From the IMG/VR virus record IMGVR_UViG_2609459790_000001, positions 1-38,270 of that record: a stretch of DNA of 38,270 bases; one strand, given 5' to 3'. Made by a program: the position numbers and the translations under genes. Positions 2,123 to 38,234 of this stretch are shown in pieces (the first letter of the stretch is position 1; every line of letters starts with the position of its first letter). The notes beneath the pieces are model-generated. The model was given only the letters and a program-made list of their open reading frames with translations. It made no database searches and had not been told where the DNA came from. Source of the stretch: a virus (lineage: Duplodnaviria > Heunggongvirae > Uroviricota > Caudoviricetes).

Positions 2123-2812
2123 TCACTCTCCTTTGATGCGAATGCCAGCGTCAGACATCATATGCAGATACTCACCTGCATCCTGAACCCATTGACCTCC
2201 AACCCCGTAATAGCGATGCGTAATGATGTCGATAGTTACTAACGGGTCTTGTTCGATTAACTGCCGCAGAAACTCTTCCAGGTCACCAGTGCAGTGCTTG
2301 ATAACAGGAGTCTTCCCAGGATGGCGAACAACAAGAAACTGGTTTCCGTCTTCACGGACTTCGTTGCTTTCCAGTTTAGCAATACGCTTACTCCCATCCG
2401 AGATAACACCTTCGTAATACTCACGCTGCTCGTTGAGTTTTGATTTTGCTGTTTCAAGCTCAACACGCAGTTTCCCTACTGTTAGCGCAATATCCTCGTT
2501 CTCCTGGTCGCGGCGTTTGATGTATTGCTGGTTTCTTTCCAGCTCATCCAGCAGCGCCAAGACGGTAGCTGGATTGGCTGCGGCGATGAATTCAGCATTG
2601 GCCTGCTGTTCCATTTGGAAATCTTCATCGAAACCGCTTTCAGGATGCGCTCCTTCAATTCTGCAAATGGGAAGATATCCAACAACTTCACGATGAATTA
2701 GCGCATCATCACCATCAAATCGGCTCTCTCCATATTCGAGCGACCACTCACCACACGTTGCTTTCTCTGCCTTTTCACGCAGTGCCTGATAGTCAATTGT
2801 CATTCTCGCCAT
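2123..2812 (-). CDS. ea22: Ea22-like protein, C-terminal two thirds lambda-like with a different N-terminus
   Basis: 229 aa; central and C-terminal region (NQQYIKRRDQENEDIALTVGKLRVELETAKSKLNEQREYYEGVISDG ... ) matches remembered lambda Ea22. Confidence 0.75.
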   Translation of the reverse strand: MARMTIDYQALREKAEKATCGEWSLEYGESRFDGDDALIHREVVGYLPICRIEGAHPESGFDEDFQMEQQANAEFIAAANPATVLALLDELERNQQYIKRRDQENEDIALTVGKLRVELETAKSKLNEQREYYEGVISDGSKRIAKLESNEVREDGNQFLVVRHPGKTPVIKHCTGDLEEFLRQLIEQDPLVTIDIITHRYYGVGGQWVQDAGEYLHMMSDAGIRIKGE

Positions 2813-3465
2813 CCTTCACAGTTGTAATCACTACAGCCTTCAAAATCATATGGGTTGTACTGCCAGGTGATTTTTCCGCAATGCGGACAATTCCAACGCA
2901 CCTTCCCGCTTCGCGACTTCTTTCTTCTGTTCTGCTTTTTCAACCAGTCAGGCATGACCAAACCTGCGCCCTGAACCATTGTTCTGCGGTTAAAGTTATT
3001 GATATTGAACGTCAGGCGCTTTGCTGAATCAGCAATGGAAAATGGCAACCAAACTATTCCTGGTTCGTTTTTGTTGGCGACGCTAAAGATGGTCGCTTTA
3101 CTGAAGTCATCTGTTGGCAATCCACCGTGTTGAAGCCAGTAAACATCGTTGCCGTTCCAGCTACCTTTTTTGTAGGCCACATACGCAGTGCAATCTGGCT
3201 CAATCAGGTTTTCTGTAGGGATGTACTGGCAATCAACGTGCCACACAGCCATTGCATCCACGCTATCAGCGCAAACAGGCTGATCGATATCTCGACCACA
3301 ATTCCAGGCTTTTTGGGCTTCTTCCAGCGTGTAAACATGAGCGCGATCGATATTAGAACTGTAACCATTGCCGTTATGGCAATGGAATGAAGCGTTATTA
3401 CCCACAGTTTCACGCAAGCACATCATGTAAAAGCGGTTATTCACTGGCTGCCTCCTTTGCGCCAC
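2800..3465 (-). CDS. Hypothetical Cys/His-rich protein with C-terminal zinc-ribbon-like motif (CPHCGK ... CSDYNCEGW)
   Basis: 221 aa ORF, non-ATG (GTG) start in the track, overlaps ea22 start by 13 nt suggesting translational coupling; no family recognised. Confidence 0.55.
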
Positions 3466-3604
3466 ATCGCATTCAGATATTTGTTTTGATTCACTGAAGG
3501 AAAAGAATTTCTTTTAAGCAATTCCTCTCTCGATGGCATTGGCTTTACGCGCTGGCGAATAATCATTTCTGCCGGAAGAATGCCGGGATTGTATGCAAGT
3601 CCTC

Positions 3605-3886
3605 TCATGATTTACTCTCCACGAACTGGTCAATAGCCATGCTAAGTGACACACCTAAAGTCTCGATATGCTGCTGAATATCCTGTAGCGTATGCGCCTG
3701 AGATAACAGGATTTCACGGTTGCATAACTCTTTAACCAGATGCTCAAACTTGCTGTAATAACCGATACGACTTAGTGTTTCTTTGCCTGCATTCTCGCCT
3801 TCTTTGATAATTCCTCTTTCGCTAAGAATCAGATCGTGTTTTGTTCCAGTAATAACGTATTTGCCGAGGTCGATGTTTAGCTTCAT
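3605..3886 (-). CDS. Hypothetical protein
   Basis: 93 aa ORF in same orientation and tightly packed in the leftward early operon; no family recognised. Confidence 0.55.
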
Positions 3887-3902
3887 TGTTAATTACTCCA
3901 TG

Positions 3903-4217
3903 TTAATTTATTCGTATGCCTGCTCTTTCTTCATCGAGTTTTTTTAGCTTGTATCGCATAGCTCTTACTGAATAAATTGAGCGGCAGGTTGCAATTGCTA
4001 TTTCTTCTGCGGAGAACTTACCGAAAAGTGATACTTCGGCTCTTGTCCATCGTCTTCCACGAAGTCGGCTAACAATGTCAGCGCCAATCCTTGTTGCTTT
4101 TGCCATTACTGCTTTTTCAGTCCTTTCCAGTTTTTCAGCGATAACTTCAACTGGCATTGTCGCCGCTACTTCGCGCAAGAAATCGACTTCCCATTTCTCC
4201 CATGGAGTCTTTTTCAT
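3903..4217 (-). CDS. Hypothetical protein with two W-x-x-E-V helix-rich repeats (possible DNA-binding)
   Basis: 104 aa ORF; internal duplication of a W..EV..L...IA motif visible in the translation; function not established. Confidence 0.55.
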   Translation of the reverse strand: MKKTPWEKWEVDFLREVAATMPVEVIAEKLERTEKAVMAKATRIGADIVSRLRGRRWTRAEVSLFGKFSAEEIAIATCRSIYSVRAMRYKLKKLDEERAGIRIN

Positions 4218-4228
4218 AGTCGATACCG

Positions 4229-4717
4229 TTATTTGATAAGAAGTGAAGGTTTCCCAACTTTGAGTTGAGCGCCGGGGATATTTATTCCTGCTTTTAGTTG
4301 GTGCTTGATTGCCAACTTGTCGGCTTTAATTGTCGTTTCGAACTCAACGTATTCAGGAGGAAGGGCGCTTGAGTCGATGATTTCTACAATTTCTGACGGT
4401 TTGCGGATTGTTACCTGGTGAATACCTGCTCGAATATTTTTCTTGCCAACCATTTCAAGCGATGACGCTATATATGATTTGATGCTGTCAATCTTATTTT
4501 GAATTACTGCGGCTCGCTCATTCAGTGACTTTGCCTCTTCCTTGAGGCGTTCAGCATAACCAGATTCATTTTTAATGACGGAAAGAAGTTGCTCTATTTT
4601 ATCGGTAAATTCTCCTTCCATGCCTTCTATTGTGTCAGCAATCATCTCTGGTTCTAAATCTGAATCCATCAATTTTGCGTATTCATTGGCAATTTCATAC
4701 AGTTTGCTCACTGGCAA
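4229..4717 (-). CDS. Gp157-like protein (siphovirus Gp157 family), recombinase-associated
   Basis: 162 aa, coiled-coil rich, immediately downstream of the RecT-family gene with overlapping start/stop; pattern matches remembered Sipho_Gp157 family members that accompany RecT/Erf in phages. Confidence 0.55.
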   Translation of the reverse strand: MPVSKLYEIANEYAKLMDSDLEPEMIADTIEGMEGEFTDKIEQLLSVIKNESGYAERLKEEAKSLNERAAVIQNKIDSIKSYIASSLEMVGKKNIRAGIHQVTIRKPSEIVEIIDSSALPPEYVEFETTIKADKLAIKHQLKAGINIPGAQLKVGKPSLLIK

Positions 4718-5606
4718 CCTCCAGTTTCGCTTTGCATTCTATGTAAATGGCTTGTACGTTCTGCTGCAATTCCATTCCAGATGTCAGGCGATATGCTTCT
4801 GCAAAATATCGCTTCAAATCATCCATGTTTTCTGCCTGAGCCATTTCATCGCAAAGAAGTTGTACTTTATCCATTATTTCCTGCTGGCGTTTCCGTTCAT
4901 CTTCGCGGATATCTTCCTCTGATTTGTGCGGCATAACTGGTTCAGTCCACACACCTTCTTCTTCGTTTAGTACGTGAATAGCACTATCAAGACGTGATGC
5001 CTTAGGCCAATACTTGCTTGCACGCTTTACGACCGTCTTTCGCGCCATCTCATTCCAGTGATTTACCCATGGTCCTTTATCGCTGAATGCTGCCTTGCTT
5101 GTTTTCCTTACAGCCTCAATTTCAGCCAGACTCATCTCTTCCGTTAGATAATCACCTGCCGGCGTCTTAACTGTGCAGTAAACGCCAACGATATCACCAC
5201 GATCACCGAAGGCGTTGTATTTATGGGTTGGTGCTTTATCAAGCCCGTTTGACTCATAGGTATCGTTAGCATGAACAAGTTTTGCCTGACCCCATGAGAT
5301 AACACCAGACTCCATTGCAATATGGAGCAATCCCATATAGCTGATATCAAGGCAAACCATGCCGTCGCGAGGAACCAGATAAGCCAGTTTGCTGGCAGGG
5401 TTTAAGGTGATGCCGATCGCCGCAACATTGATGATGGCGTTCTGTGCGCTGGTTGGATTTGCCAGTGCCGTTTTAGCCAGGTAATCATTTTTCTGGAAAT
5501 ACTGAATTGCAAACTGGCTTTCCTTAGCCCATGTCACCGTCTGTTCAGTCAATGCTCCGCAGAATAACTGCTCTTGCTGTTTAACGAATTCAACGATATT
5601 GCTCAT
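4695..5606 (-). CDS. recT: RecT-family single-strand annealing recombinase
   Basis: 303 aa; the segment GPWVNHWNEMARKTVVKRASKYWP aligns to the conserved GPWVTHWEEMAKKTAIRR motif of E. coli RecT. Confidence 0.85.
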   Translation of the reverse strand: MSNIVEFVKQQEQLFCGALTEQTVTWAKESQFAIQYFQKNDYLAKTALANPTSAQNAIINVAAIGITLNPASKLAYLVPRDGMVCLDISYMGLLHIAMESGVISWGQAKLVHANDTYESNGLDKAPTHKYNAFGDRGDIVGVYCTVKTPAGDYLTEEMSLAEIEAVRKTSKAAFSDKGPWVNHWNEMARKTVVKRASKYWPKASRLDSAIHVLNEEEGVWTEPVMPHKSEEDIREDERKRQQEIMDKVQLLCDEMAQAENMDDLKRYFAEAYRLTSGMELQQNVQAIYIECKAKLEVASEQTV

Positions 5607-5914
5607 GCAGCTTCTCCAAAAATGTGTCTGCGTTTGAATATTGCGAAGGCATATTCAGCCTTAACTCTTTCGGTTATTGCATCCCAGAACCATTCAGCGG
5701 CTTTTTCCTGATAGTTACAGTCATCATCTTCCAGCCAGTCGATAGCGTCCTTAGTGTGTTCATCTGGTTTATATGAGCGAAGCATTTCGCTTATTGGGTC
5801 GCAACGTTTGCAGAGACGATCAACTTCACTGTTGATTCGTTCGTAATCTTCATCGGTAAAACTTGCGATGATTTGCGATATTTCACGCTTATCATTCAGA
5901 GTCAGAATCATCAT
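5603..5914 (-). CDS. Hypothetical acidic protein in the position of lambda gam or P22 abc (function unknown)
   Basis: 103 aa ORF translationally coupled (ATGA overlap) to the recombinase gene; no recognisable similarity to Gam. Confidence 0.55.
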   Translation of the reverse strand: MMILTLNDKREISQIIASFTDEDYERINSEVDRLCKRCDPISEMLRSYKPDEHTKDAIDWLEDDDCNYQEKAAEWFWDAITERVKAEYAFAIFKRRHIFGEAA

Positions 5915-5995
5915 CTTTCTCCTGTTCTTTGTGCTGATTGAGCATTTTGTTCATCTGACGAATGAATTCTTCGTCTGACCAGTTATCTGTAAAAC

Positions 5996-6148
5996 TCATT
6001 TCCTGCGATACCACGGAAGGTTGATAGCTGATTTCATCGCTTTATTTGCTTCAAGCCACATTTTTGAATCACCAATAAATCGGGCTATTACTGCTTTGTT
6101 TTGTGCTGCACGAAGCACCTGGTGATTGATGGCTATTTCATTGCGCAT
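5996..6148 (-). CDS. kil: Kil-like small protein (host killing / FtsZ inhibitor family)
   Basis: 50 aa ORF missing from the track (below its length cutoff): MRNEIAINHQVLRAAQNKAVIARFIGDSKMWLEANKAMKSAINLPWYRRK; FIGDSKMW resembles FIGDEKMF of lambda Kil as I recall it. Confidence 0.55.
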   Translation of the reverse strand: MRNEIAINHQVLRAAQNKAVIARFIGDSKMWLEANKAMKSAINLPWYRRK

Positions 6149-6267
6149 AACGCCTCCAGTTGTTTCTTTGCTGCTCTGATTAATTGTTTAACTCGGCGTG
6201 ATAATTCAGATTCGTGCGGGTAGAAAGCGGACATGACGCCGCTACCCGCGAACTGAAAGTGCATCAT
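6133..6267 (-). CDS. cIII: CIII-like small protein (FtsH inhibitor family)
   Basis: 44 aa ORF missing from the track: MMHFQFAGSGVMSAFYPHESELSRRVKQLIRAAKKQLEALCAMK; resembles lambda CIII core (AIAGWPV...PSESLLERITRKLRDGWKRL); strong AAGGAG ribosome-binding site 7 nt upstream. Confidence 0.55.
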   Translation of the reverse strand: MMHFQFAGSGVMSAFYPHESELSRRVKQLIRAAKKQLEALCAMK

Positions 6268-6336
6268 GGGTAACTCCTTATATTTGATTGCATAACGAAA
6301 ACGCCTCGAGTGAAGCGTTATTGGTATGCATATAAA

Positions 6337-7209: not shown

Positions 7210-7743
7210 TTACTGGCTCCGTCCATGATTTTCATGAAAGCCATATAGTGCATTGGCTTCTTTCCTTGCTTGTTTGGCATCATCTAAAAGTTTGAATGAG
7301 CCTAGGTATTTTCGTTTTCCATCCACAGTTATCGATGCAACATAAAACCCATGCTCTTTTCTTGCTTCAACACCTGTAACTCCAGTTGATGAAGATGATT
7401 TTAAAGGCATGTTTTTCATATTCTCTTTGAAAGAAACGCTTCTTAAATTGGAGATTCTGTTGTCATCCTTAACGCCGTTTATGTGATCAATCACATCAGG
7501 CCAGTAGCCATGCACGTAAAGCCATGCAAGTCTGTGAGACTTAAATTTTTTACCTCCAATATTTATTCTCAGATAACCCTTGTTGTCAGGTGAGCCAGCC
7601 TTTTTACCTGGATACTTCTTGTTCCACGTCAAGGCAGCTCTGTTATCCGCAAACAAATGCTTTGCTCTCGGCTTCCAATAAAAGTCACCACTCACAGGAT
7701 TGTAATGAAGAATCTCCCTTACAGACGCTTGAGTAAGATCCAC
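7210..7743 (-). CDS. HNH endonuclease with AP2-type DNA-binding domain (homing-endonuclease-like), first gene of the PL operon
   Basis: 177 aa; motif YWPDVIDHINGVKDDNRISNLR (HNH_3 type) and a C-terminal AP2-like segment; GTG start with AGGAGG ribosome-binding site. Confidence 0.85.
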   Translation of the reverse strand: MDLTQASVREILHYNPVSGDFYWKPRAKHLFADNRAALTWNKKYPGKKAGSPDNKGYLRINIGGKKFKSHRLAWLYVHGYWPDVIDHINGVKDDNRISNLRSVSFKENMKNMPLKSSSSTGVTGVEARKEHGFYVASITVDGKRKYLGSFKLLDDAKQARKEANALYGFHENHGRSQ

Positions 7744-8049: not shown

Positions 8050-8781
8050 TTAGTAATCAACTACAGACCACCAGAAAATTCTTCCGATGATCTCAATGTC
8101 ACTTAGATTCTTTTCTTCTTGTGGGTATTCCAGTGAGTTAAAGCTTCTAATGCTTACCTTGTCAGGCCCTGTTCGAAAGAGAATCTTAATGCGTTTCCAA
8201 CCGTTCTCGTTAATGGCGTAAATCTTTCCGTCAACTATTTTCTTATCGTTGGTGTTAACAGCAACTGTTGTTCCATCAGGAATGTTTGGCTCCATGCTGT
8301 TGCCACGAGCCGGAAAACAAACAACCCCGCTTCCATCACTGTTCGCGCCAACTCTGCGAAGGGTTGATTTGGAAAAGCGCAACATAAAGCCGTTGTGATC
8401 TTCATCAATCACCCGACCATCCCCGCATGCAAACTCAATATCTTTAAGGTAAGGAATTTCAACTTCATCACCTCTTAAAGGCGTTCCTCCATCCCATGGG
8501 TCCAAACACCCCCACGTGCTTTCATGAGGAATAGAAGATTTTGGATCATAAGGTTCAACTCCCTCATCACGCATTGGCCCAGTTCCATCGGAAAGCCATT
8601 CCGTACGAACTCCAAGCACTTTTGATATTTCAAAAAGTTTGCGCGTATTGCGTGTTTTTCCAGACGTAAGTTTCCAGACGCTTGGCTGAGACATGCCAAC
8701 AGCATTGCCAAGAGAAGCCTGAGTAAACCCAGCCTGATCCATCGCGTATGTAAGCCTTTGAGAAAAAGTATCTAGTTTCAT
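8050..8781 (-). CDS. cI: CI-type prophage repressor (HTH domain plus LexA-like S24 autopeptidase domain)
   Basis: 243 aa; N-terminal HTH (QASLGNAVGMSQPSVWKL), C-terminal S24 motifs GNSMEP and downstream Lys; divergent from cro. Confidence 0.9.
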   Translation of the reverse strand: MKLDTFSQRLTYAMDQAGFTQASLGNAVGMSQPSVWKLTSGKTRNTRKLFEISKVLGVRTEWLSDGTGPMRDEGVEPYDPKSSIPHESTWGCLDPWDGGTPLRGDEVEIPYLKDIEFACGDGRVIDEDHNGFMLRFSKSTLRRVGANSDGSGVVCFPARGNSMEPNIPDGTTVAVNTNDKKIVDGKIYAINENGWKRIKILFRTGPDKVSIRSFNSLEYPQEEKNLSDIEIIGRIFWWSVVDY

Positions 8782-12091: not shown

Positions 12092-12109
12092 TTGGGGGAG
12101 AGGGAAGTC

Positions 12110-12550
12110 ATGAAAAAACTAACCTTTGAAATTCGATCTCCAGCACATCAGCAAAACGCTATTCACGCAGTACAGCAAATTCTTCCAGACCCAACCAAAC
12201 CAATCGTAGTGATCATTCAGGAGCGCAACCGCAGCTTAGACCAGAATCGGAAGCTTTGGGCTTGCCTTGGTGACGTCTCTCGTCAGGTTGAATGGCATGG
12301 TCGCTGGCTGGATGCAGAAAGCTGGAAGTGTGTGTTTACCGCAGCATTAAAGCAGCAGGACGTTGTTCCTAACCTTGCCGGGAATGGCTTTGTGGTAATA
12401 GGCCAGTCAACCAGCAGGATGCGTGTAAGCGAATTTGCGGAGCTATTAGAGCTTATACAGGCATTCGGTACAGAGCGTGGCGTTAAGTGGTCAGACGAAG
12501 CGCGACTGGCTCTGGAGTGGAAAGCAAGATGGGGAGACAGGGCGGCATGA
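12110..12550 (+). CDS. ninB: NinB (Orf-family recombination mediator)
   Basis: Translation from [31 protein letters not shown] matches lambda NinB nearly throughout. Confidence 0.92.
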
Positions 12551-12729
12551 GACGACAGCGACGAAGTATCACCGACATCATCTGCGAAAACTGCAAATAC
12601 CTTCCAACGAAGCGCTCCAGAAATAAACGCAAGCCAATCCCAAAAGAATCTGACGTAAAAACCTTCAACTACACGGCTCACCTGTGGGATATCCGGTGGC
12701 TTAGAGAACGTGCGAGGAAAACAAGGTGA
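12547..12729 (+). CDS. ninD: NinD-like small zinc-binding protein
   Basis: [32 protein letters not shown]... matches remembered lambda NinD; start overlaps the ninB stop. Confidence 0.85.
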
Positions 12730-12896
12730 TTGACCAAAATCGAAGTTACGAACAAGGAAGTGTCGAGCGAGCTTTAACGTGCGCTAACTGCGGTCAGAAG
12801 CTGCATGTGCTGGAAGTTCACGTGTGTGAGCACTGCTGCGCAGAACTGATGAGCGATCCGAATAGCTCAATGTACGAGGAAGAAGATGATGGCTAA
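12726..12896 (+). CDS. ninE: NinE-like small protein
   Basis: 56 aa ORF from a GTG start ([55 protein letters not shown]) matches remembered lambda nin small protein. Confidence 0.75.
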
Positions 12897-13455
12897 ACCA
12901 GCGCGAAGACGATGTAACCGTAAAAGAGAAGATTTAACTGTTAAAAGGATATTTGAGTTACTAAGTTTCGATAAATCTACCGGGGTATTTAGATGGAAAG
13001 TTCCCACTCAGGGAAGGATAGCATTAAATAGTGTTGCTGGAACTTTTGATTCCAACGGTTATTCAATGATCATGATAGATGGGCGTAGATATAAAACTCA
13101 CGTCTTAGTTTTTTACATAACTCATAATCGTTGGCCTGCTGGTCAAATTGACCACGTTAATGGAATTAGGACCGACAATAGGCCAGAAAATTTAAGAGAA
13201 TGCCTGCCAATAGAAAATTCAAGAAATATAAGGATCCGAAAGAATAGCAAATCAGGTTGCAGAGGAGTTACTTGGCACAAACGACAGAAAAAATGGAATG
13301 TTAGGCTAGGTTTCCATGGCAAGAGTAAACACTTCGGATGCTTTGATGATCTGGAGTTAGCGGTACTAGTTGCTGAAGAAGCCCGAGATAAGTATTACGG
13401 TGATTTTTCCGGCAACGAAAGGAGCACTTATGCGAATCTATCGAAGGAAATGTAA
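12886..13455 (+). CDS. HNH endonuclease with AP2-type domain, inserted between ninE and ninG
   Basis: 189 aa; HNH motif [22 protein letters not shown]; paralogous to the ORFs at 7210..7743 and 23913..24434; its first codons (MAKPARRRC) resemble the lambda NinG N-terminus. Confidence 0.85.
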
Positions 13456-14032
13456 ATGTTGCAATGAATGGTTTATACCAAAATATCAAAATCAATATTG
13501 GTGTAATGAGATTTGTGGAACCAAGATAGCACTCGAACGACGAAGTAAAGAACGCGAAAAAGCGGAAAAAGCAGCAGAGAAGAAACGACGACGAGAGGAG
13601 CAGAAACAGAAAGATAAACTTAAGATTCGAAAACTCGCCTTAAAGCCCCGCAGTTACTGGATTAAACAAGCCCAACAAGCCGTAAACGCCTTCATCAGAG
13701 AAAGAGACCGCGACTTACCATGTATTTCATGCGGAACGATCACGTCTGCTCAGTGGGATGCCGGACATTACCGGACAACTGCTGCGGCACCTCAACTCCG
13801 ATTTGATGAACGCAATATTCACAAGCAATGCGTGGTGTGCAACCAGCACAAAAGCGGAAATCTCGTTCCGTATCGCGTCGAACTGATTAATCGCATCGGG
13901 CAGGAAGCAGTAGACGAAATCGAATCAAACCATAACCGCCATCGCTGGACTGTCGAAGAGTGCAAGGCGATCAAGGCAGAGTACCAACAGAAACTCAAAG
14001 ACCTGCGAAATAGCAGAAGTGAGGCCGCATGA
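13430..14032 (+). CDS. ninG: NinG (Rap recombination-associated structure-specific endonuclease family)
   Basis: From [15 protein letters not shown] with AAAGGAG ribosome-binding site; downstream sequence [73 protein letters not shown] matches lambda NinG. Confidence 0.88.
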
Positions 14033-17370: not shown

Positions 17371-17850
17371 ATGACCCAGCATATTGGCGTAAAACTGATT
17401 AACGCCTTTCCGATGACGAGACAGGCATATAACGATTTTCGTGGCTGGCAGCTTCCTGCCGGAGAAAACGGCGAGGACGAAGGCTATCTGGTTGAATATC
17501 TGGATGGCGGAAAACCTAACACCGATCGCTTTGATGGCTACGTTAGCTGGAGTCCAAAAGAAGTATTCGAAAAGGCTTATCGTCCGGTATCAGGACTAAG
17601 TTTCGGCCTTGCCATGGAAGCGTTAAAACAGGGCAAAAGTTTGCAGCGGGCAGGATGGAATGGGAAAGACCAGTTTGTTTATCTCGTGAAAGGGGAAAAA
17701 TTAGCGTCTGCGTTGGGTTATGGCTTTGGCGAATATGTTGGCGAGCCAACTTTCAATGACACGCTTGTATTGAAAAACTCACAGAACCGCCTTGCTACAT
17801 GGGTTCCATCCATTGGCGACCTGATGGCTGAAGACTGGCAAATCATTTAA
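17371..17850 (+). CDS. DUF2829-domain protein (Tad2-like; candidate anti-Thoeris signalling-molecule sponge)
   Basis: 159 aa; C-terminal half LSFGLAMEALKQGKSLQRAGWNGKDQFVYLV ... WVPSIGDLMAEDWQI fits the DUF2829 signature (F-x-x-A-x-x-A-L-K-x-G-K ... R-x-G-W-N-G-K ... L-x-x-E-D-W) as I recall it. Confidence 0.6.
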   Translation: MTQHIGVKLINAFPMTRQAYNDFRGWQLPAGENGEDEGYLVEYLDGGKPNTDRFDGYVSWSPKEVFEKAYRPVSGLSFGLAMEALKQGKSLQRAGWNGKDQFVYLVKGEKLASALGYGFGEYVGEPTFNDTLVLKNSQNRLATWVPSIGDLMAEDWQII

Positions 17851-23000: not shown

Positions 23001-23912
23001 ATGGACCAAACCACCGACATTCAGGCTTCTGAAGAATTAACCCTGCCCGGCAATCATGCAGCGGCATCTGCTGATGGCTTAGTTGTCGATAATGCCAACG
23101 ACAACGCAGGTCAGGAAGAAGGCTTCGAGATTGTCCTGAAAGACGATGAGAAACCAAAACAAGACCCGGCAACTAATGCTGAATTTGCCCGTCGCCGCAT
23201 CGAACGCAAACGCCAGCGTGAGCTTGAGCAGCAGATGGAAGCGGTTAAGCGTGGAGAGTTGCCGGAGCACCTGCGGGTGAACCCTGAGTTACCAAAACAA
23301 CCAGACCCTAACGATTATCTTTCCGAAGATGCACTGGCTAAGTACGACTATGACCAGAGCCGCGCACTGGCTGCCTTCCAGCAGGCAAACAGTGAATGGC
23401 AGATCAAGGCTATGGACGCACGAAGCCAGGCTGTCGCCGAGCAGGGTCGCAAAACTCAGGAGTTCACCCAGCAATCAGCGCAATACGTCGAGGCAGCCCG
23501 TAAGCACTACGACGCAGCGGAAAAGCTCAATATCCCTGACTATCAGGAGAAAGAGGATGCATTCATGCAACTGGTGCCGCCAGCAGTCGGTGCCGACATC
23601 ATGCGCCTCTTCCCGGAGAAATCCGCCGCTCTCATGTATCACCTTGGTGCTAATCCTGAGAAAACACGCCAGTTGCTGGCGATGGACGGGCAATCCGCGT
23701 TGATTGAACTCACTCGACTGTCAGAACGTTTAACTCTCAAGCCTCGAGCCAAGCCTGTTTCAGAAGCCCCGTTACCTGATGAACCCATTCAGGGACACGC
23801 TGTTGCTGCAAATATCTCTGCGATTGAAAAGCAGATGGAAGCGGCAGCAAACAAAGGGGATGTAGAGACATACCGCAAGCTCAAGGCGCAACTGAATAAA
23901 GGAATTCGATAA
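23001..23912 (+). CDS. 8: Scaffolding protein (P22 gp8-like)
   Basis: 303 aa, same length as P22 gp8, highly charged helical protein between portal and coat. Confidence 0.9.
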
Positions 23913-24434
23913 TTATTTCGATATCGTGATGTTGTTTTCCTCGTCAAACTTTCTGATTACTTCTTTCGCCTCTTCGAATGAAGAACATACTTTTTGCACT
24001 CTTGCATTAAGCAGTCGCTTATGAGCGATCCATCTTTTCCGCGTGTTGCAAAAGTAAACTCCAGATATTCCGCTGGAGTTATTTTTAGATAGTTTGATTC
24101 TATTCCTTTGGTTTGCTGATTTTTTCACAAGACGAAGATTTTCAATTCTGTTGTCGTGGCGAATCCCATTTATATGGTCAATTTCCATGCCTTCTGGAAT
24201 ATCTCCGTTAAACATTACCCATACGATGCGGTGTGCTAGCCACTTAATGCCGTTAATTCTTATGCGGATATATCCATTGCTTTCTAAAAGACCAGCAACT
24301 TTCCCAGCGTGTTTTGCATTCCAAACGTTGTGATAGTTGCGATTCTTTTTGTTGTTGAAAAATTCAGAGCTTCTGGCTTTCCAAACCAAAGAGCCATCGC
24401 GGTATTCGAAGTATTCATTCAGTTCCATGCTCAT
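23913..24434 (-). CDS. HNH endonuclease with AP2-type domain, antisense insertion between scaffold and coat genes
   Basis: 173 aa; motif EIDHINGIRHDNRIENLR; paralogous to the ORFs at 7210..7743 and 12886..13455; AT-rich; stop codon abuts the scaffold stop. Confidence 0.85.
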   Translation of the reverse strand: MSMELNEYFEYRDGSLVWKARSSEFFNNKKNRNYHNVWNAKHAGKVAGLLESNGYIRIRINGIKWLAHRIVWVMFNGDIPEGMEIDHINGIRHDNRIENLRLVKKSANQRNRIKLSKNNSSGISGVYFCNTRKRWIAHKRLLNARVQKVCSSFEEAKEVIRKFDEENNITISK

Positions 24435-24501: not shown

Positions 24502-25797
24502 ATGACTCTCAAAGAAGGGCAGTTAGTTACTTACGCTATCGATGAAATCATCGAAACCGTCCAGAACCTGACGCCAATGGCGTCAAAAGTGACAAAATAC
24601 ACCCCTCCGGCAGAATCCATGCAGCGTTCAAGCAACACCGTGTGGATGCCTGTTGAGCAGGAAGCGCCAACCCAGACTGGCTGGGATTTAACTGGCAACG
24701 CAACCGGGATTCTGGAACTCTCCGTGAAATGCAACATGGGCGATCCGGATAACGATTTCTTCGAGCTTCGTGCAGATGACCTGCGTGATGAGCGTTCTTA
24801 CCGTCGCCGCATCCAGGCATCCGCCAAAAAACTGGCGAATAACATTGAGTCAGCGATTGCCAAACAGGCAACTGAAATGGGCTCGCTTGTTGTTCACGAT
24901 ACCCGCGCAATTGGTCCATCTACTGGCCTGTCTGGCTGGGATTTTGTGTCTGATGCAGAGCGCCTGATGTTCTCCCGTGAGCTAAACCGCGATATGGGCA
25001 TCAGTTACTTCCTGAACCCTGACGATTACCGTAAAGCAGGCCGCAACCTGGTAGATGGTGACATCTTCGGGCGCGTTCCTGAAGAAGCGTATCGCAACGG
25101 TACTATTCAGCGTCAGATTGCTGGCTTTGATGAAATTCTTCGCTCACCGAAACTTCCGGCAGTTACCAAGTCAACCGCTACTGGTGTAACTGTGTCTGGT
25201 GCGCAGAAGTTTAAGCCGCAGGCATACACCCTTGATACCGATGGTAACAAAGAGAACGTCGACAACCGTGTTGCAACGGTGACCGTATCCTCCACCACCG
25301 GATTTAAGCGCGGCGACAAAATCAGCTTCACTGGTGTGAAATTCCTGTCTCAGATGGCGAAGAACGTGCTGACTGATGATGCAACTTTCTCAATCACCCG
25401 TGTGATCGATAGTACTCACATCGAAATCACGCCGAAACCGATTGCACTGGATGACGCGTCACTGACAAAAGAAGAGAAGGCTTACGCTAACGTAAACACT
25501 TCTCTTGCTGATACCACTCCGGTAAACGTTCTGAACGTGGCAACAACCACCGCTAACGTGTTCTGGGCTGATGACTCAATCCGTCTGCTGTCTCAGCCGA
25601 TCCCGGTAACCCATGAACTGTTTGCTGGCATGAAAACGTCTTCCTTCAGCATTCCTGGTATTGGTGTTAACGGCATCTTCGCAACGCAGGGTGATATCAA
25701 CACTCTGTCTGGTAAGTGCCGTATTGCTGTGTGGTATTCAGCATGTGCTGTACGACCAGAGGCAATTGGTGTTGGTCTGCCTAACCAGACTGCGTGA
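24502..25797 (+). CDS. 5: Major coat protein (P22 gp5-like)
   Basis: 431 aa (P22 coat is 430 aa), strong ribosome-binding site, followed by a strong terminator. Confidence 0.93.
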
Positions 25798-37725: not shown

Positions 37726-37921
37726 TTATATATAACCTTTTGATGTTTTATATGATGTTATCTTGGCAGGGACGCCAGCAATAGTGCAATTTCCATCTTT
37801 AAAATCTTTGTTAACGACTGCATTCGCGCCTATTGCACAATTGTCACCTATAACTATCTTCCCGTAAATTTTTGCTCCAGGACCAATGTAGCAATTATCA
37901 CCAATTACAGGGGATTCAAGT
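37726..37921 (-). pseudogene. 3' fragment of a hexapeptide-repeat acetyltransferase gene, truncated at a junction with IS3
   Basis: Minus-strand frame reads ...[64 protein letters not shown]-stop (left-handed beta-helix acetyltransferase C-terminus); the reading frame ends at the IS3 junction with no start. Confidence 0.6.
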
Positions 37922-38234
37922 CCTGCTCCAACAGATTTTCTGACACAGGCAGGCCGTGTGCGCGGTAGCTGACCGGGCTGAACTTCCGGGAGGCCTTTGC
38001 CCTCAGTCCCTGACGGCGCAGGCTTGCCGCCACGGTTTTTACGTTAAAGGGGTAACCCTGAGCACGCAGTTCATCCGTCAGGCGTGGGGCACCGTAACGC
38101 TGTTTTGACCGGGTAAAAGCCGCGAGGACAACGCTGTCGCAGTGTTGGCGGAACTGCTGACGCGTGCTTATCCTTGTCCGCCGCTGACACCACGTATACC
38201 AGCCGCTGCGGGCCACCCGGAGCACGCGGCACAT
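37922..38234 (-). pseudogene. insF: IS3 transposase orfB (InsF) N-terminal fragment
   Basis: First ~104 codons of IS3 orfB in frame, then divergence and a stop at the junction (track ORF 37905..38234 reads through the junction for 5 unrelated codons). Confidence 0.85.

What the first reader, a model, noticed from the sequence alone, without database searches (positions are those of the whole stretch)
4229..5914. RecT-type recombination module without a recognisable exonuclease partner
RecT-family annealases usually pair with a RecE or YqaJ-type exonuclease. Here RecT is flanked by a Gp157-like protein downstream and an unknown 103-aa acidic protein upstream, in the slot where lambda has gam and P22 has abc1/abc2. 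The 103-aa protein could be a host nuclease (RecBCD) inhibitor, and the exonuclease may be supplied by the host.
Basis: inference. Interest (0 to 1): 0.45.

Follow-up and report, generated by a model that had tools for sequence, protein, structure and literature searches.

The report
Exonuclease-free RecT/Gp157 phage recombination module
This is the recombination module of a P22/lambda-like E. coli prophage, a type already described in phage HK140: a RecT annealing protein is paired with a DNA-end-binding-type protein (Gp157) instead of an exonuclease, and it follows a small acidic protein of unknown function that sits where other phages carry a RecBCD inhibitor.

Summary
On the minus strand, three translationally coupled genes encode a 103-aa acidic protein (5603-5914), RecT (4695-5606) and a Sipho_Gp157 protein (4229-4711). 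No exonuclease domain was found in the early-left operon or in the other window ORFs that were scanned.

It is not new. The same block, about 98% identical, is in phages HK140, mEpX1, Kapi1 and Gally. Zheng et al. 2025 describe the HK140 type as "RecT-type annealase + MuGam-type anti-RecBCD, no nuclease", and 84 of their 246 lambdoid Rec modules lack a nuclease.

Two things are added here.
- The 103-aa family (PHROG 3486, no Pfam) always opens a Rec module. In otherwise near-identical modules its slot holds lambda Gam or phi80 GamL instead. A 95%-identical copy in phage SEN22 precedes a completely different recombinase set. This is good positional support for an anti-RecBCD role, but no homology to Gam or GamL was detectable.
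- RecT's C-terminal domain co-varies with the downstream gene. A lambda-Bet-type, Exo-binding domain goes with a YqaJ/Exo nuclease (72/72 loci). A different domain goes with Gp157 (159/159 loci). So Gp157 probably replaces the exonuclease as RecT's physical partner.

Which enzyme resects the DNA ends remains inferred. Interest is moderate to low.

The parts
5603..5914 (-). 103-aa acidic, all-helical protein of the PHROG 3486 family. It is the first gene of the Rec module, in the 'Gam slot', and is a candidate RecBCD inhibitor.
   Evidence: ORF. PHROG 3486 at 3.7e-59. No Pfam, NCBIfam or PDB hit. pI 4.65; family median 4.65. The family has 54 representatives at 50% clustering, most about 100 aa. 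It always lies immediately upstream of a recombinase gene. It is swapped for lambda Gam or GamL in sister modules.
5892..6014 (-). 40-aa acidic small ORF overlapping the end of kil and the start of the 103-aa gene. It travels with the 103-aa gene as one mosaic unit.
   Evidence: PHROG 17766 at 7.6e-16 and PHROG 2123 at 5e-10. It has only a weak N-terminal resemblance to P22 Arf, and P22 Arf belongs to a different PHROG, 2445. It is replaced together with the 103-aa gene in phage Dewey and kept together with it in SEN22. It is adjacent to the 103-aa gene in most of the 160 sampled loci.
4947..5606 (-). RecT N-terminal annealing domain (residues 1-220).
   Evidence: PF03837 at 3.2e-32 over residues 31-211. 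PHROG 148 at 8e-92. 59% identical to phi80 rec over residues 4-219, and 50-98% identical to most of the other RecTs compared, whether Gp157- or Exo-partnered.
4695..4946 (-). RecT C-terminal domain of 'type A' (residues 221-303). It is found only with a downstream Gp157 and is the inferred Gp157-interaction domain.
   Evidence: It is 49-95% identical among Gp157-partnered RecTs but only 7-19% identical to the C-termini of Exo/YqaJ-partnered RecTs. Type A is followed by Gp157 in 159 of 159 informative loci. Type B is followed by a nuclease in all 72 loci where a downstream gene was detected. Type B is the lambda Bet CTD (PDB 8TFU at 6e-32, 6M9K at 2e-25). Type A has no PDB match.
4229..4711 (-). 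Sipho_Gp157 protein of 160 aa, starting at the GTG at 4711 (an upstream TTG at 4717 is also in frame). It occupies the slot of the exonuclease and is classed as a Mu Gam-like DNA-end protection protein.
   Evidence: PF05565 at 2.4e-37. PHROG 253, 'Mu Gam-like end protection', at 5e-54. The AF2 model has pLDDT 80, with a 68-residue helix followed by a small beta domain. Sub-threshold matches to PF07352 (Mu Gam) occur in 6 of 23 close relatives, and a near-full-length one in HK639 Gp157 at E = 0.0038. Zheng et al. 2025 class the HK140 protein as MuGam type. My own hhalign and fold searches did not confirm the link.
3903..4217 (-). 104-aa basic protein (pI 10.0) with two HTH-like repeats. It is an Abc1-like accessory gene of the Rec module.
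   Evidence: PHROG 323 at 2.8e-20 and PHROG 11492. P22 Abc1 matches PHROG 323 at 1.3e-23, and Mu gp9, the gene next to Mu gam, matches it at 5.2e-29. BLASTP against Mu gp9 gives E = 5e-05. The gene is annotated 'similar to P22 Abc1' in phage Gally. A PHROG 323/11492 gene follows the third module gene in L007, L012, L005 and SEN22.
3605..3886 (-). 93-aa DUF5405 protein. It is a variable passenger, present in about half of sister modules.
   Evidence: PF17399 at 2.3e-05 and PHROG 154. It is present in 42 of the 80 loci.
3441..3608 (-). 55-aa homologue of P22 orf56 (DUF2737). It marks the downstream border of the Rec module.
   Evidence: The sequence resembles P22 orf56. The equivalent gene is annotated DUF2737 in HK140 and SEN22.
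5996..6267 (-). kil (5996-6148) and cIII (6133-6267). They form the upstream border, as in lambda (cIII-kil-gam-bet-exo).
   Evidence: PF06301 at 6.4e-20 and PF08134 at 1.5e-29.
12092..14032 (+). Other phage recombination functions in the nin region: NinB/Orf mediator (12092-12550) and NinG/Rap junction endonuclease (13370-14032).
   Evidence: PHROG 72 at 2.4e-58 and PHROG 171 at 1.9e-120.

Best explanation
This is a complete, functional, exonuclease-free 'HK140-type' recombination (Rec) module of a P22-like lambdoid prophage. It is transcribed from pL after cIII and kil. It is built from three independently exchangeable units.

1. The 40-aa and 103-aa genes occupy the Gam slot. The 103-aa acidic helical protein most likely acts on the host, and the best guess is that it neutralises RecBCD as lambda Gam and phi80 GamL do.
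2. RecT and Gp157 form one unit. RecT's N-terminal domain anneals ssDNA. Its type-A C-terminal domain replaces the lambda-Bet-type, Exo-binding domain and most likely tethers RecT to Gp157. Gp157 is a Mu Gam/Ku-like dimeric dsDNA-end binder that shields phage ends from RecBCD and brings the annealase to them.
3. An Abc1-like basic HTH protein is an accessory.

The single-stranded DNA that RecT needs would come from host activities, such as RecJ with a helicase, or from replication-fork ssDNA, rather than from a phage exonuclease.

Shown: gene identities, coupling, absence of a nuclease, slot-sharing, domain/partner co-variation, and mosaic junctions at gene borders.
Inferred: RecBCD inhibition by the 103-aa protein, end binding by Gp157, the RecT-CTD/Gp157 contact, and the source of resection.

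The confidence of 0.6 is for the whole statement. Classification as an HK140-type nuclease-free Rec module is about 0.9. The 103-aa protein as a RecBCD inhibitor is about 0.5. A RecT-CTD/Gp157 contact is about 0.55.
For: Identity and absence of a nuclease.

The block is common and occurs in viable phages.
- It is about 98% identical in HK140, mEpX1, Kapi1, Gally, Louie and 683R2.
- 202 IMG/VR stretches encode the 103-aa protein. Of the 80 best loci, 79 show 103aa > RecT > Gp157; one locus shows only 103aa > RecT. None carries a nuclease.

Published classification: HK140 is SAP-4 + MuGam with no nuclease and no SSB; 84 of 246 lambdoid Rec modules lack a nuclease (PMC12315714).

Slot-sharing upstream of RecT.
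- Among loci near-identical to the window: 103-aa family in 75 of 80, lambda Gam in 2.
- Among HK639-type loci: GamL 61, lambda Gam 9, 103-aa family 6.
- Among Exo-type loci: GamL 78, 103-aa family 1.
- In phage Dewey the junctions fall exactly at the recT start and the kil end.

The 103-aa protein is independent of the recombinase.
- A 95%-identical allele in SEN22 precedes ExoVIII/DUF3799 plus a 189-aa protein.
- Distant family members precede RecT+YqaJ in 5 contexts, RecT+Gp157 in 4, and DUF3799 in 2.
- Its size and charge match the known inhibitors: 103 aa and pI 4.65, against 98 aa and 4.63 (Gam) and 93 aa and 4.70 (GamL).

RecT CTD and partner co-vary. Type B is the lambda Bet CTD, and that domain binds lambda Exo in a crystal structure (PMC6393309).

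Gp157 and Mu Gam.
- PHROG 253 label.
- Sub-threshold, near-full-length PF07352 matches.
- Helix-plus-beta topology in the model.
- Mu gam also has a PHROG 323 neighbour.
- Gp157/Mu-gam-like genes flank erf and sak4 in Firmicutes phages (PMC8093625).

No Chi site in 38 kb, which fits phages that block rather than exploit RecBCD (PMC12315714).
Against: - No experiment exists on any member of the 103-aa family.
- It has no detectable homology to lambda Gam: Pfam gives nothing, and hhalign gives 16% probability over 28 columns, although that score exceeds all 30 column-shuffled controls.
- It has none to GamL (0.6%) or Abc2. It also lacks the N-terminal 'MNAYxxxDRIE' helix shared by Gam and GamL, whose hhalign control scores 95%.
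- Its AF2 model (best pLDDT 77, the other four about 46-50) has no PDB fold match, including lambda Gam structures.
- The window's own Gp157 does not reach PF07352 even at E = 1.
- hhalign of Gp157 against Mu Gam gives about 1% probability.
- Co-variation of the RecT CTD with Gp157 could reflect common inheritance of one mosaic block rather than physical contact. Many sampled loci are closely related and are not independent.
- Zero Chi sites is not statistically different from the 0.9 expected by chance.
Confidence: 0.6

Rival explanations
1. The 103-aa protein is a recombinase cofactor that acts on the annealase or on phage DNA, as P22 Arf does for Erf or lambda Orf does. It is not an inhibitor of a host nuclease.
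For: It is always immediately upstream of a recombination gene and translationally coupled to it. P22 has a small acidic accessory gene, arf, upstream of erf.
Against: The same allele (95% identical) serves RecT+Gp157 in the window and ExoVIII+189aa in SEN22. Family members sit before RecTs that share only 18-24% N-terminal identity. The nearly identical RecT+Gp157 unit works with lambda Gam or GamL in its place. It does not co-vary with either RecT domain.
Confidence: 0.15
2. The 103-aa protein is an unrelated host-takeover or counter-defence gene that merely rides in the variable region next to the Rec module. It might, for example, block a defence system that senses recombinases or RecBCD inhibition.
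For: The family has no homology to anything known. Lambdoid early-left operons are rich in small accessory genes. End-binding proteins and recombinases are known to license Gabija (PMC12407980), which would create a need for counter-measures.
Against: Its position is strict: it is the first gene of a Rec module in all 13 distinct contexts and in all 80 loci retrieved with it. The only alternative occupants found in that slot are two established RecBCD inhibitors.
Confidence: 0.2
3. The module is a decayed remnant: an ancestral exonuclease gene was lost, and RecT is left non-functional or able to act only on ssDNA.
For: Distant relatives of the 103-aa/RecT pair carry YqaJ in the third position. 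Zheng et al. caution that Rec modules with few genes are 'somewhat suspect'.
Against: The block is intact, translationally coupled and about 98% conserved in several independently isolated plaque-forming phages and in hundreds of prophage contigs. The swap is a clean replacement that also exchanges the RecT CTD. It is not a deletion.
Confidence: 0.05
4. Gp157 is itself the missing nuclease or resection factor of a novel fold, so the module is a disguised two-component recombinase.
For: It sits exactly in the exonuclease slot and co-varies with the RecT CTD, as Exo does. Its C-terminal beta domain carries invariant D, E, H and K residues.
Against: It has no match to any nuclease family in Pfam, PHROG, NCBIfam or PDB. 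Its only recurrent remote match is Mu Gam, a non-catalytic end binder. Its architecture is dominated by a coiled coil.
Confidence: 0.07

Closest known systems
HK140-type lambdoid Rec module (SAP-4 RecT-type annealase + MuGam-type anti-RecBCD, no nuclease, no SSB), Zheng, Casjens et al., Genome Res 2025 (PMC12315714)
   Same: The gene block is the same and about 98% identical in nucleotide sequence: 103aa-RecT-Gp157-104aa-(93aa)-DUF2737. It lies in the same place, between cIII/kil and the ea genes.
   Different: Nothing substantial differs. The paper's main text does not count the 103-aa gene (HK140 gp42) as a Rec or anti-RecBCD gene, and it explicitly leaves partner-domain shuffling unanalysed.
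Lambda Red (gam-bet-exo) and the phi80/Lula gamL-rec-exo module
   Same: The operon position and order are the same: a small acidic protein, then the annealase, then a third gene. The RecT N-domain is 59% identical to phi80 rec. The 103-aa protein matches Gam and GamL in size and pI.
   Different: The third gene is Gp157, not a YqaJ/lambda-Exo nuclease. The RecT CTD is not the Bet/Exo-binding domain. The 103-aa protein is not homologous to Gam or GamL.
HK639 Rec module (GamL + RecT + MuGam-type Gp157)
   Same: The RecT(type-A CTD)-Gp157 unit is the same: N-domain 75% and CTD 49% identical. There is no nuclease.
   Different: The upstream slot holds GamL (PHROG 1050) rather than the 103-aa family.
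P22 Erf-Abc1-Abc2(-Arf) module
   Same: This is a nuclease-free Rec module of a P22-like headful-packaging phage. It includes an Abc1-family (PHROG 323) accessory gene and a small acidic ORF upstream of the annealase.
   Different: The annealase is RecT, not Erf. There is no Abc2, which in P22 redirects RecBCD to act as the resection enzyme (PMC9836394 and PMC12315714). A Gp157 is present that P22 lacks (noted as 'absent in P22' in the Gally record).
Phage Mu Gam (Ku-like dsDNA-end binder) with its neighbour gp9
   Same: A Gam-like protein lies next to a PHROG 323 small HTH protein. The PHROG label and the published classification call Gp157 MuGam-like.
   Different: Sequence similarity is only sub-threshold. 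Mu has no adjacent annealase.

Membership tests
RecT family (PF03837 / TIGR00616) | Match to the family profile above the curated cut-off | tested here: met
   PF03837 scores 112 bits against a cut-off of 24. TIGR00616 scores 82.4 bits against a cut-off of 52.65.
Two-component recombinase (SSAP + cognate 5'-3' exonuclease: Red-alpha/beta, RecET, YqaJK) | An adjacent gene with a YqaJ, lambda-Exo, RecE or DUF3799 PD-(D/E)XK domain | tested here: not met
   No such domain was found in any early-left ORF or in the other window ORFs scanned. tblastn with YqaJ and Exo queries found nothing in 160 sister loci.
Two-component recombinase (SSAP + cognate 5'-3' exonuclease: Red-alpha/beta, RecET, YqaJK) | An SSAP C-terminal domain of the Exo-binding (lambda Bet CTD) type | tested here: not met
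   The window RecT CTD has no PDB match and is 7-19% identical to the Bet-type CTDs. phi80 rec matches the Bet CTD at 6e-32.
HK140-type Rec module (Zheng et al. 2025) | [quoted passage not shown] | tested here: met
   98% nucleotide identity to HK140 over 89% of window 3500-6300, with the same gene order. No SSB or nuclease was found.
Sipho_Gp157 (PF05565) | Full-length match above the curated cut-off | tested here: met
   128.9 bits against a cut-off of 28.6, covering profile positions 1-162 of 162.
Mu Gam / Ku-like end-binding proteins (PF07352) | Sequence match to the Mu Gam profile | tested here: inconclusive
   The window protein has no hit at E <= 1. Six of 23 close relatives hit (best E = 0.0011), and HK639 Gp157 hits at 0.0038 over profile positions 13-147 of 149. 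All are below the 28.3-bit cut-off. hhalign against a Mu Gam alignment gives about 1% probability.
Mu Gam / Ku-like end-binding proteins (PF07352) | Ku-like fold and dimeric binding of dsDNA ends | tested here: inconclusive
Lambda Gam (PF06064 / PHROG 259) | Profile match, including the N-terminal helix that plugs the RecB ssDNA channel | tested here: not met
   None of the 32 family members hits PF06064. hhalign gives 16% probability, limited to a 28-column C-terminal motif. The N-terminal MNAY..DRIE motif is absent. Foldseek did not retrieve Gam structures.
GamL of phi80/Lula (PHROG 1050) | Profile match | tested here: not met
   hhalign gives 0.6-3% probability and BLASTP gives E = 3.2. As a control, GamL against lambda Gam gives 95%.
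P22 Abc2 (PHROG 656) | A homologue anywhere in the module | tested here: not met
   BLASTP of all the module ORFs tested against P22 Abc2 gave only noise. tblastn in sister loci was negative.
P22 Abc1 / PHROG 323 ('D5-like regulator') | Membership of the same profile family as P22 Abc1 | tested here: met
   The 104-aa protein matches PHROG 323 at 2.8e-20 and P22 Abc1 matches it at 1.3e-23. Direct BLASTP between the two is not significant, so the relationship is remote.
Functional RecBCD inhibitor (any type) | Binding to or inhibition of RecBCD, or protection of DNA ends | not testable with these tools
   The only evidence is positional: slot-sharing with Gam and GamL.

The most novel reading that the evidence does not exclude
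The PHROG 3486 family (the 103-aa protein) is a third, structurally unrelated class of Gam-slot RecBCD inhibitor. Gp157 is a RecT-tethered DNA-end-binding partner, recognised through a dedicated RecT C-terminal domain, that functionally replaces the exonuclease. Together they would define an 'end-protection-coupled' annealing pathway that needs no phage nuclease.
Probability: 0.3. Interest if true: 0.6.

Novelty: already known. Interest (0 to 1): 0.35.

Why it matters
The headline, a RecT with no exonuclease, is ordinary. About a third of lambdoid Rec modules lack a nuclease, and this exact module is in sequenced phages and was classified in 2025.

Two loose ends give some value. First, the 103-aa protein belongs to a widespread but uncharacterised family, found in 202 IMG/VR stretches and in 54 clusters at 50% identity. 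It alternates with lambda Gam and GamL in the same slot, which makes it a cheap and well-motivated candidate for a new RecBCD inhibitor. Such inhibitors are useful in recombineering, as quinolone potentiators, and as triggers or licensers of defence systems such as Gabija, which responds to proteins that keep RecBCD off phage DNA ends.

Second, the clean swap of RecT's C-terminal domain together with Exo or Gp157 gives a testable model of how annealases are matched to partners. It also suggests RecT+Gp157 as a nuclease-free recombineering pair.

Tried and rejected
1. Homology of the 103-aa protein to lambda Gam. A BLAST hit to the Gam of phage Dewey (48% over 23 aa) was followed up with family alignments. 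hhalign gave only 16% probability over 28 columns, above all 30 shuffled controls but far from the 95% GamL/Gam control. It was rejected as evidence of membership.
2. Homology of the 103-aa protein to GamL, Abc1, Abc2 or Arf: none found.
3. Pfam, NCBIfam and PDB sequence searches on the 103-aa protein and on 32 family members found nothing consistent.
4. The AF2 model of the 103-aa protein (pLDDT 77 for one model, about 46-50 for the others) gave no match in a Foldseek search of the PDB.
6. Calling the 40-aa ORF an Arf homologue was rejected. P22 Arf is PHROG 2445 and the ORF is PHROG 17766/2123.
7. A scan of genome contigs with the 103-aa family gave only one locus. The diverse alignment A4 was too variable to seed a scan.
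8. The supplementary tables of Zheng et al. are not held, so I could not check how HK140 gp42 was scored.
9. RecBCD/Chi as the host resection route: there is no Chi in the window, but that is not statistically distinguishable from chance.
Full report
**1. What is in the window**

The window is a P22-like lambdoid prophage. Integrase (88-1158) and excisionase lie at the left end. A cI-type repressor is at 8050-8781. A minus-strand early-left operon runs from about 7750 down to about 1400. Replication, nin, lysis and P22-type packaging and head genes are on the plus strand.

In transcription order the early-left genes are:
- an HNH_3 endonuclease (7210-7743);
- three small ORFs;
- cIII (6133-6267) and kil (5996-6148);
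- a 40-aa acidic ORF (5892-6014);
- the 103-aa protein (5603-5914);
- RecT (4695-5606);
- Sipho_Gp157 (4229-4711);
- a 104-aa basic protein (3903-4217);
- a 93-aa DUF5405 protein (3605-3886);
- a DUF2737-type 55-aa ORF (3441-3608);
- ea-type genes.

**2.

RecT matches PF03837 at 3.2e-32. Gp157 matches PF05565 at 2.4e-37 over the full profile. The 103-aa protein has no Pfam or NCBIfam match and falls in PHROG 3486, "unknown function". It is acidic, with pI 4.65.

The three genes are translationally coupled. The 103-aa stop and the RecT start overlap in ATGA. Gp157 starts at a GTG 17 nt inside the end of recT, behind a GGAG.

No YqaJ, lambda Exo, RecE/DUF3799 or other exonuclease domain was found in any early-left ORF of at least 40 aa, or in the nin-region and other ORFs scanned.

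**3. The module is already known**

The 2.8-kb region is about 98% identical to phages vB_EcoP-683R2, Louie, Kapi1, HK140, Gally and mEpX1. Their records label the genes RecT, "Mu Gam-like end protection" and, in Gally, "Anti-RecBCD protein 1, similar to P22 Abc1" for the 104-aa gene.

Zheng, Casjens, Davidson, Amundsen and Smith (Genome Res 2025, PMC12315714) analysed 246 lambdoid Rec modules. [quoted passage not shown] They also report that 84 of the 246 modules lack a nuclease gene. A RecT without an exonuclease is therefore neither rare nor undescribed.

**4. The 103-aa protein**

An exhaustive HMMER search found 54 cluster representatives at E <= 0.001. Most of the full-length ones are about 100 aa. 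Features conserved across the family include an NP motif, "D.D.Q", "WD....RV..EYA" and a C-terminal "E(A/V)A". All 32 aligned members are acidic, with pI 4.4-5.5.

In every genomic context examined, the gene is the first gene of a recombination module, just after cIII/kil where these are present, and it abuts or overlaps the next gene. The contexts are:
- RecT then YqaJ exonuclease: L006, L007, L010, L011, L179;
- RecT then Gp157: the window, L012/13, L178, L005;
- DUF3799/ExoVIII-type nuclease: L177, L180, phage SEN22;
- RecT at a contig end: L009.

Two natural swap experiments are informative.
- Phage Dewey is 97% identical to the window across the 104-aa gene, Gp157 and RecT, and 94% identical across kil and cIII. 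Between them it has replaced exactly the 40-aa and 103-aa genes with an 80-aa ORF plus a lambda-type Gam. The junctions lie at the recT start codon and the kil end.
- Phage SEN22 keeps a 95%-identical 103-aa protein (97% at the nucleotide level, with the 40-aa ORF) and an 84%-identical 104-aa gene. It has replaced RecT+Gp157 with ExoVIII plus a 189-aa protein.

Surveys of 240 IMG/VR loci show what fills the slot upstream of this RecT type:
- the 103-aa family in 75 of 80 loci near-identical to the window, 6 of 80 HK639-type loci and 1 of 80 Exo-type loci;
- GamL in 61 of 80 HK639-type loci and 78 of 80 Exo-type loci;
- lambda Gam in 2 of 80 loci near-identical to the window and 9 of 80 HK639-type loci.

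The protein is thus interchangeable with two established RecBCD inhibitors and independent of which recombinase follows. That favours a host-directed, Gam-like role over a RecT cofactor role.

Homology, however, is not demonstrable:
- no member hits the Gam Pfam family;
- hhalign against a lambda Gam alignment gives 16% probability, confined to a "DDD.(E/D)(F/Y)QE..AE" stretch (better than 30 of 30 shuffled controls, but weak);
- hhalign against GamL gives 0.6%, whereas GamL against lambda Gam gives 95% through their shared N-terminal helix, which the 103-aa family lacks;
- the AF2 model is five helices, with pLDDT 77 in one model and about 46-50 in the others, and has no PDB fold match.

**5. 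Gp157 and the RecT C-terminal domain**

Gp157 sits exactly where relatives carry the YqaJ/Exo nuclease. Thirteen RecTs were aligned.
- In most of them the N-terminal annealing domain stays 50-98% identical whatever the partner. Three shorter YqaJ-partnered RecTs share only 18-24%.
- The last 83 residues fall into two unrelated types.
- Type A (49-95% identical to the window) is found in the window, L012, L178, L005, HK639 and Dewey, all followed by Gp157.
- Type B (7-19% identical to the window) is found in phi80, L007, L006 and L179, all followed by a nuclease, and in L009, where the contig ends.

In the surveys, type A was followed by Gp157 in 159 of 159 informative loci. Type B was followed by a YqaJ/Exo nuclease in all 72 loci where a downstream gene was detected.

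Type B is the lambda Bet C-terminal domain: phi80 rec residues 232-304 match PDB 8TFU and 6M9K at 6e-32 and 2e-25. That domain is the one crystallised bound to lambda Exo (PMC6393309). Type A matches nothing in the PDB.

The simplest reading is that the C-terminal domain specifies the partner, and that type A binds Gp157. Zheng et al. raised "shuffling of partner interaction domains" as a likely explanation but did not analyse it. One caveat applies. RecT CTD and Gp157 form a single mosaic block, and many sampled loci are close relatives, so co-inheritance alone could produce the pattern.

**6. Is Gp157 Mu Gam-like?**

Evidence for:
- PHROG 253 is labelled "Mu Gam-like end protection".
- Zheng et al. 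class the HK140 and HK639 proteins as MuGam type.
- HK639 Gp157 gives a near-full-length sub-threshold hit to PF07352 (E = 0.0038), and 6 of 23 close relatives of the window protein do likewise (best 0.0011).
- The AF2 model (pLDDT 80) is a 68-residue helix followed by a small beta domain.
- Mu gam has a PHROG 323 neighbour (gp9), just as Gp157 has the 104-aa PHROG 323 gene.

Evidence against or neutral:
- The window protein itself does not hit PF07352 at E <= 1.
- My hhalign runs give about 1% probability.

I treat "Mu Gam-like end binder" as the best available functional label, not as established membership.

**7. The 104-aa protein**

It belongs to PHROG 323/11492, together with P22 Abc1 (1.3e-23) and Mu gp9 (5.2e-29). 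A member of this family follows the third module gene in the L007 (YqaJ), L012 and L005 (Gp157) and SEN22 (ExoVIII) contexts. P22 Abc1 aids recombination but is not essential for it, and its molecular function is unknown (PMC12315714).

**8. Mechanism**

Shown:
- a coupled operon of a Gam-slot protein, RecT with a non-Bet C-terminal domain, Gp157 and an Abc1-like protein;
- no phage exonuclease;
- NinB/Orf and NinG/Rap elsewhere in the window;
- no Chi site in 38 kb, in line with the reported tendency of phages that carry anti-RecBCD functions to lack Chi, although 0 against 0.9 expected is not significant on its own.

Inferred:
- After injection of the terminally redundant, headful-packaged genome, and during rolling-circle replication, Gp157 dimers cap dsDNA ends and the 103-aa protein disables RecBCD.
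- RecT is recruited to ends through its type-A C-terminal domain.
- 3' single strands are produced by host activities other than RecBCD, such as RecJ with RecQ or another helicase, or are available at replication forks.
- RecT anneals them to circularise the genome or to form concatemers.

The source of resection is the weakest step, and nothing here tests it.

**9. Verdict**

The module is already known as the HK140 type and is present nearly identically in several sequenced phages.

Residual novelty lies in two things. The uncharacterised 103-aa family is a candidate third kind of Gam-slot RecBCD inhibitor. The RecT C-terminal-domain swap points to Gp157 as a physical partner that stands in for the exonuclease. 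Both can be tested cheaply.

Noticed in passing
window 7210-7743 (-), 12886-13455 (+), 23913-24434 (-): The prophage carries three HNH_3 (PHROG 99, homing-endonuclease-type) genes. One lies antisense between the scaffold (23001-23912) and coat (24502-25797) genes, an unusual place for an insertion in a P22-type head operon.
   Followed up: no
window 17371-17850 (+): A 159-aa ORF after the lysis genes carries a Tad2-like (Thoeris anti-defence 2) domain, PF11195 at E = 6.4e-22. It may be a counter-defence gene.
   Followed up: no
window 1-38270: There is no Chi site (GCTGGTGG) on either strand. That fits the reported anticorrelation between anti-RecBCD Rec modules and Chi sites, but only 0.9 sites are expected by chance.
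   Followed up: partly
L014 (phage Mu) 5482-6325; window 3903-4711: Mu gp9, a PHROG 323 'D5-like regulator' in the same family as P22 Abc1, sits directly next to Mu gam. The PHROG 323 104-aa gene likewise sits next to Gp157. The pairing of an Abc1-like protein with a Gam-like end binder may be functionally meaningful.
   Followed up: partly
window 37905-38234 (-): An IS3-type transposase fragment (HTH_21, E = 4.4e-13) lies at the right end of the window, beyond the tailspike region.
   Followed up: no
window 2800-3465 (-): A 221-aa protein of PHROG 2457 (unknown function, E = 6.9e-118) has a C-terminal CxxC...C..C zinc-ribbon-like motif and no Pfam match.
   Followed up: no
protein P0025 (E. 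coli); window 5603-6014: A 69-aa database protein fuses the N-terminus of the 40-aa ORF to the C-terminal 43 residues of the 103-aa protein. It is a deletion variant, and it shows that the two ORFs are contiguous in other prophages.
   Followed up: no
L421 (phage SEN22) 1827-2396; L177 4627-5196: A 189-aa protein (PHROG 11517, unknown function, no Pfam or PDB hit) follows the ExoVIII/DUF3799 nuclease where an annealase would be expected. It may be an unrecognised SSAP type.
   Followed up: partly
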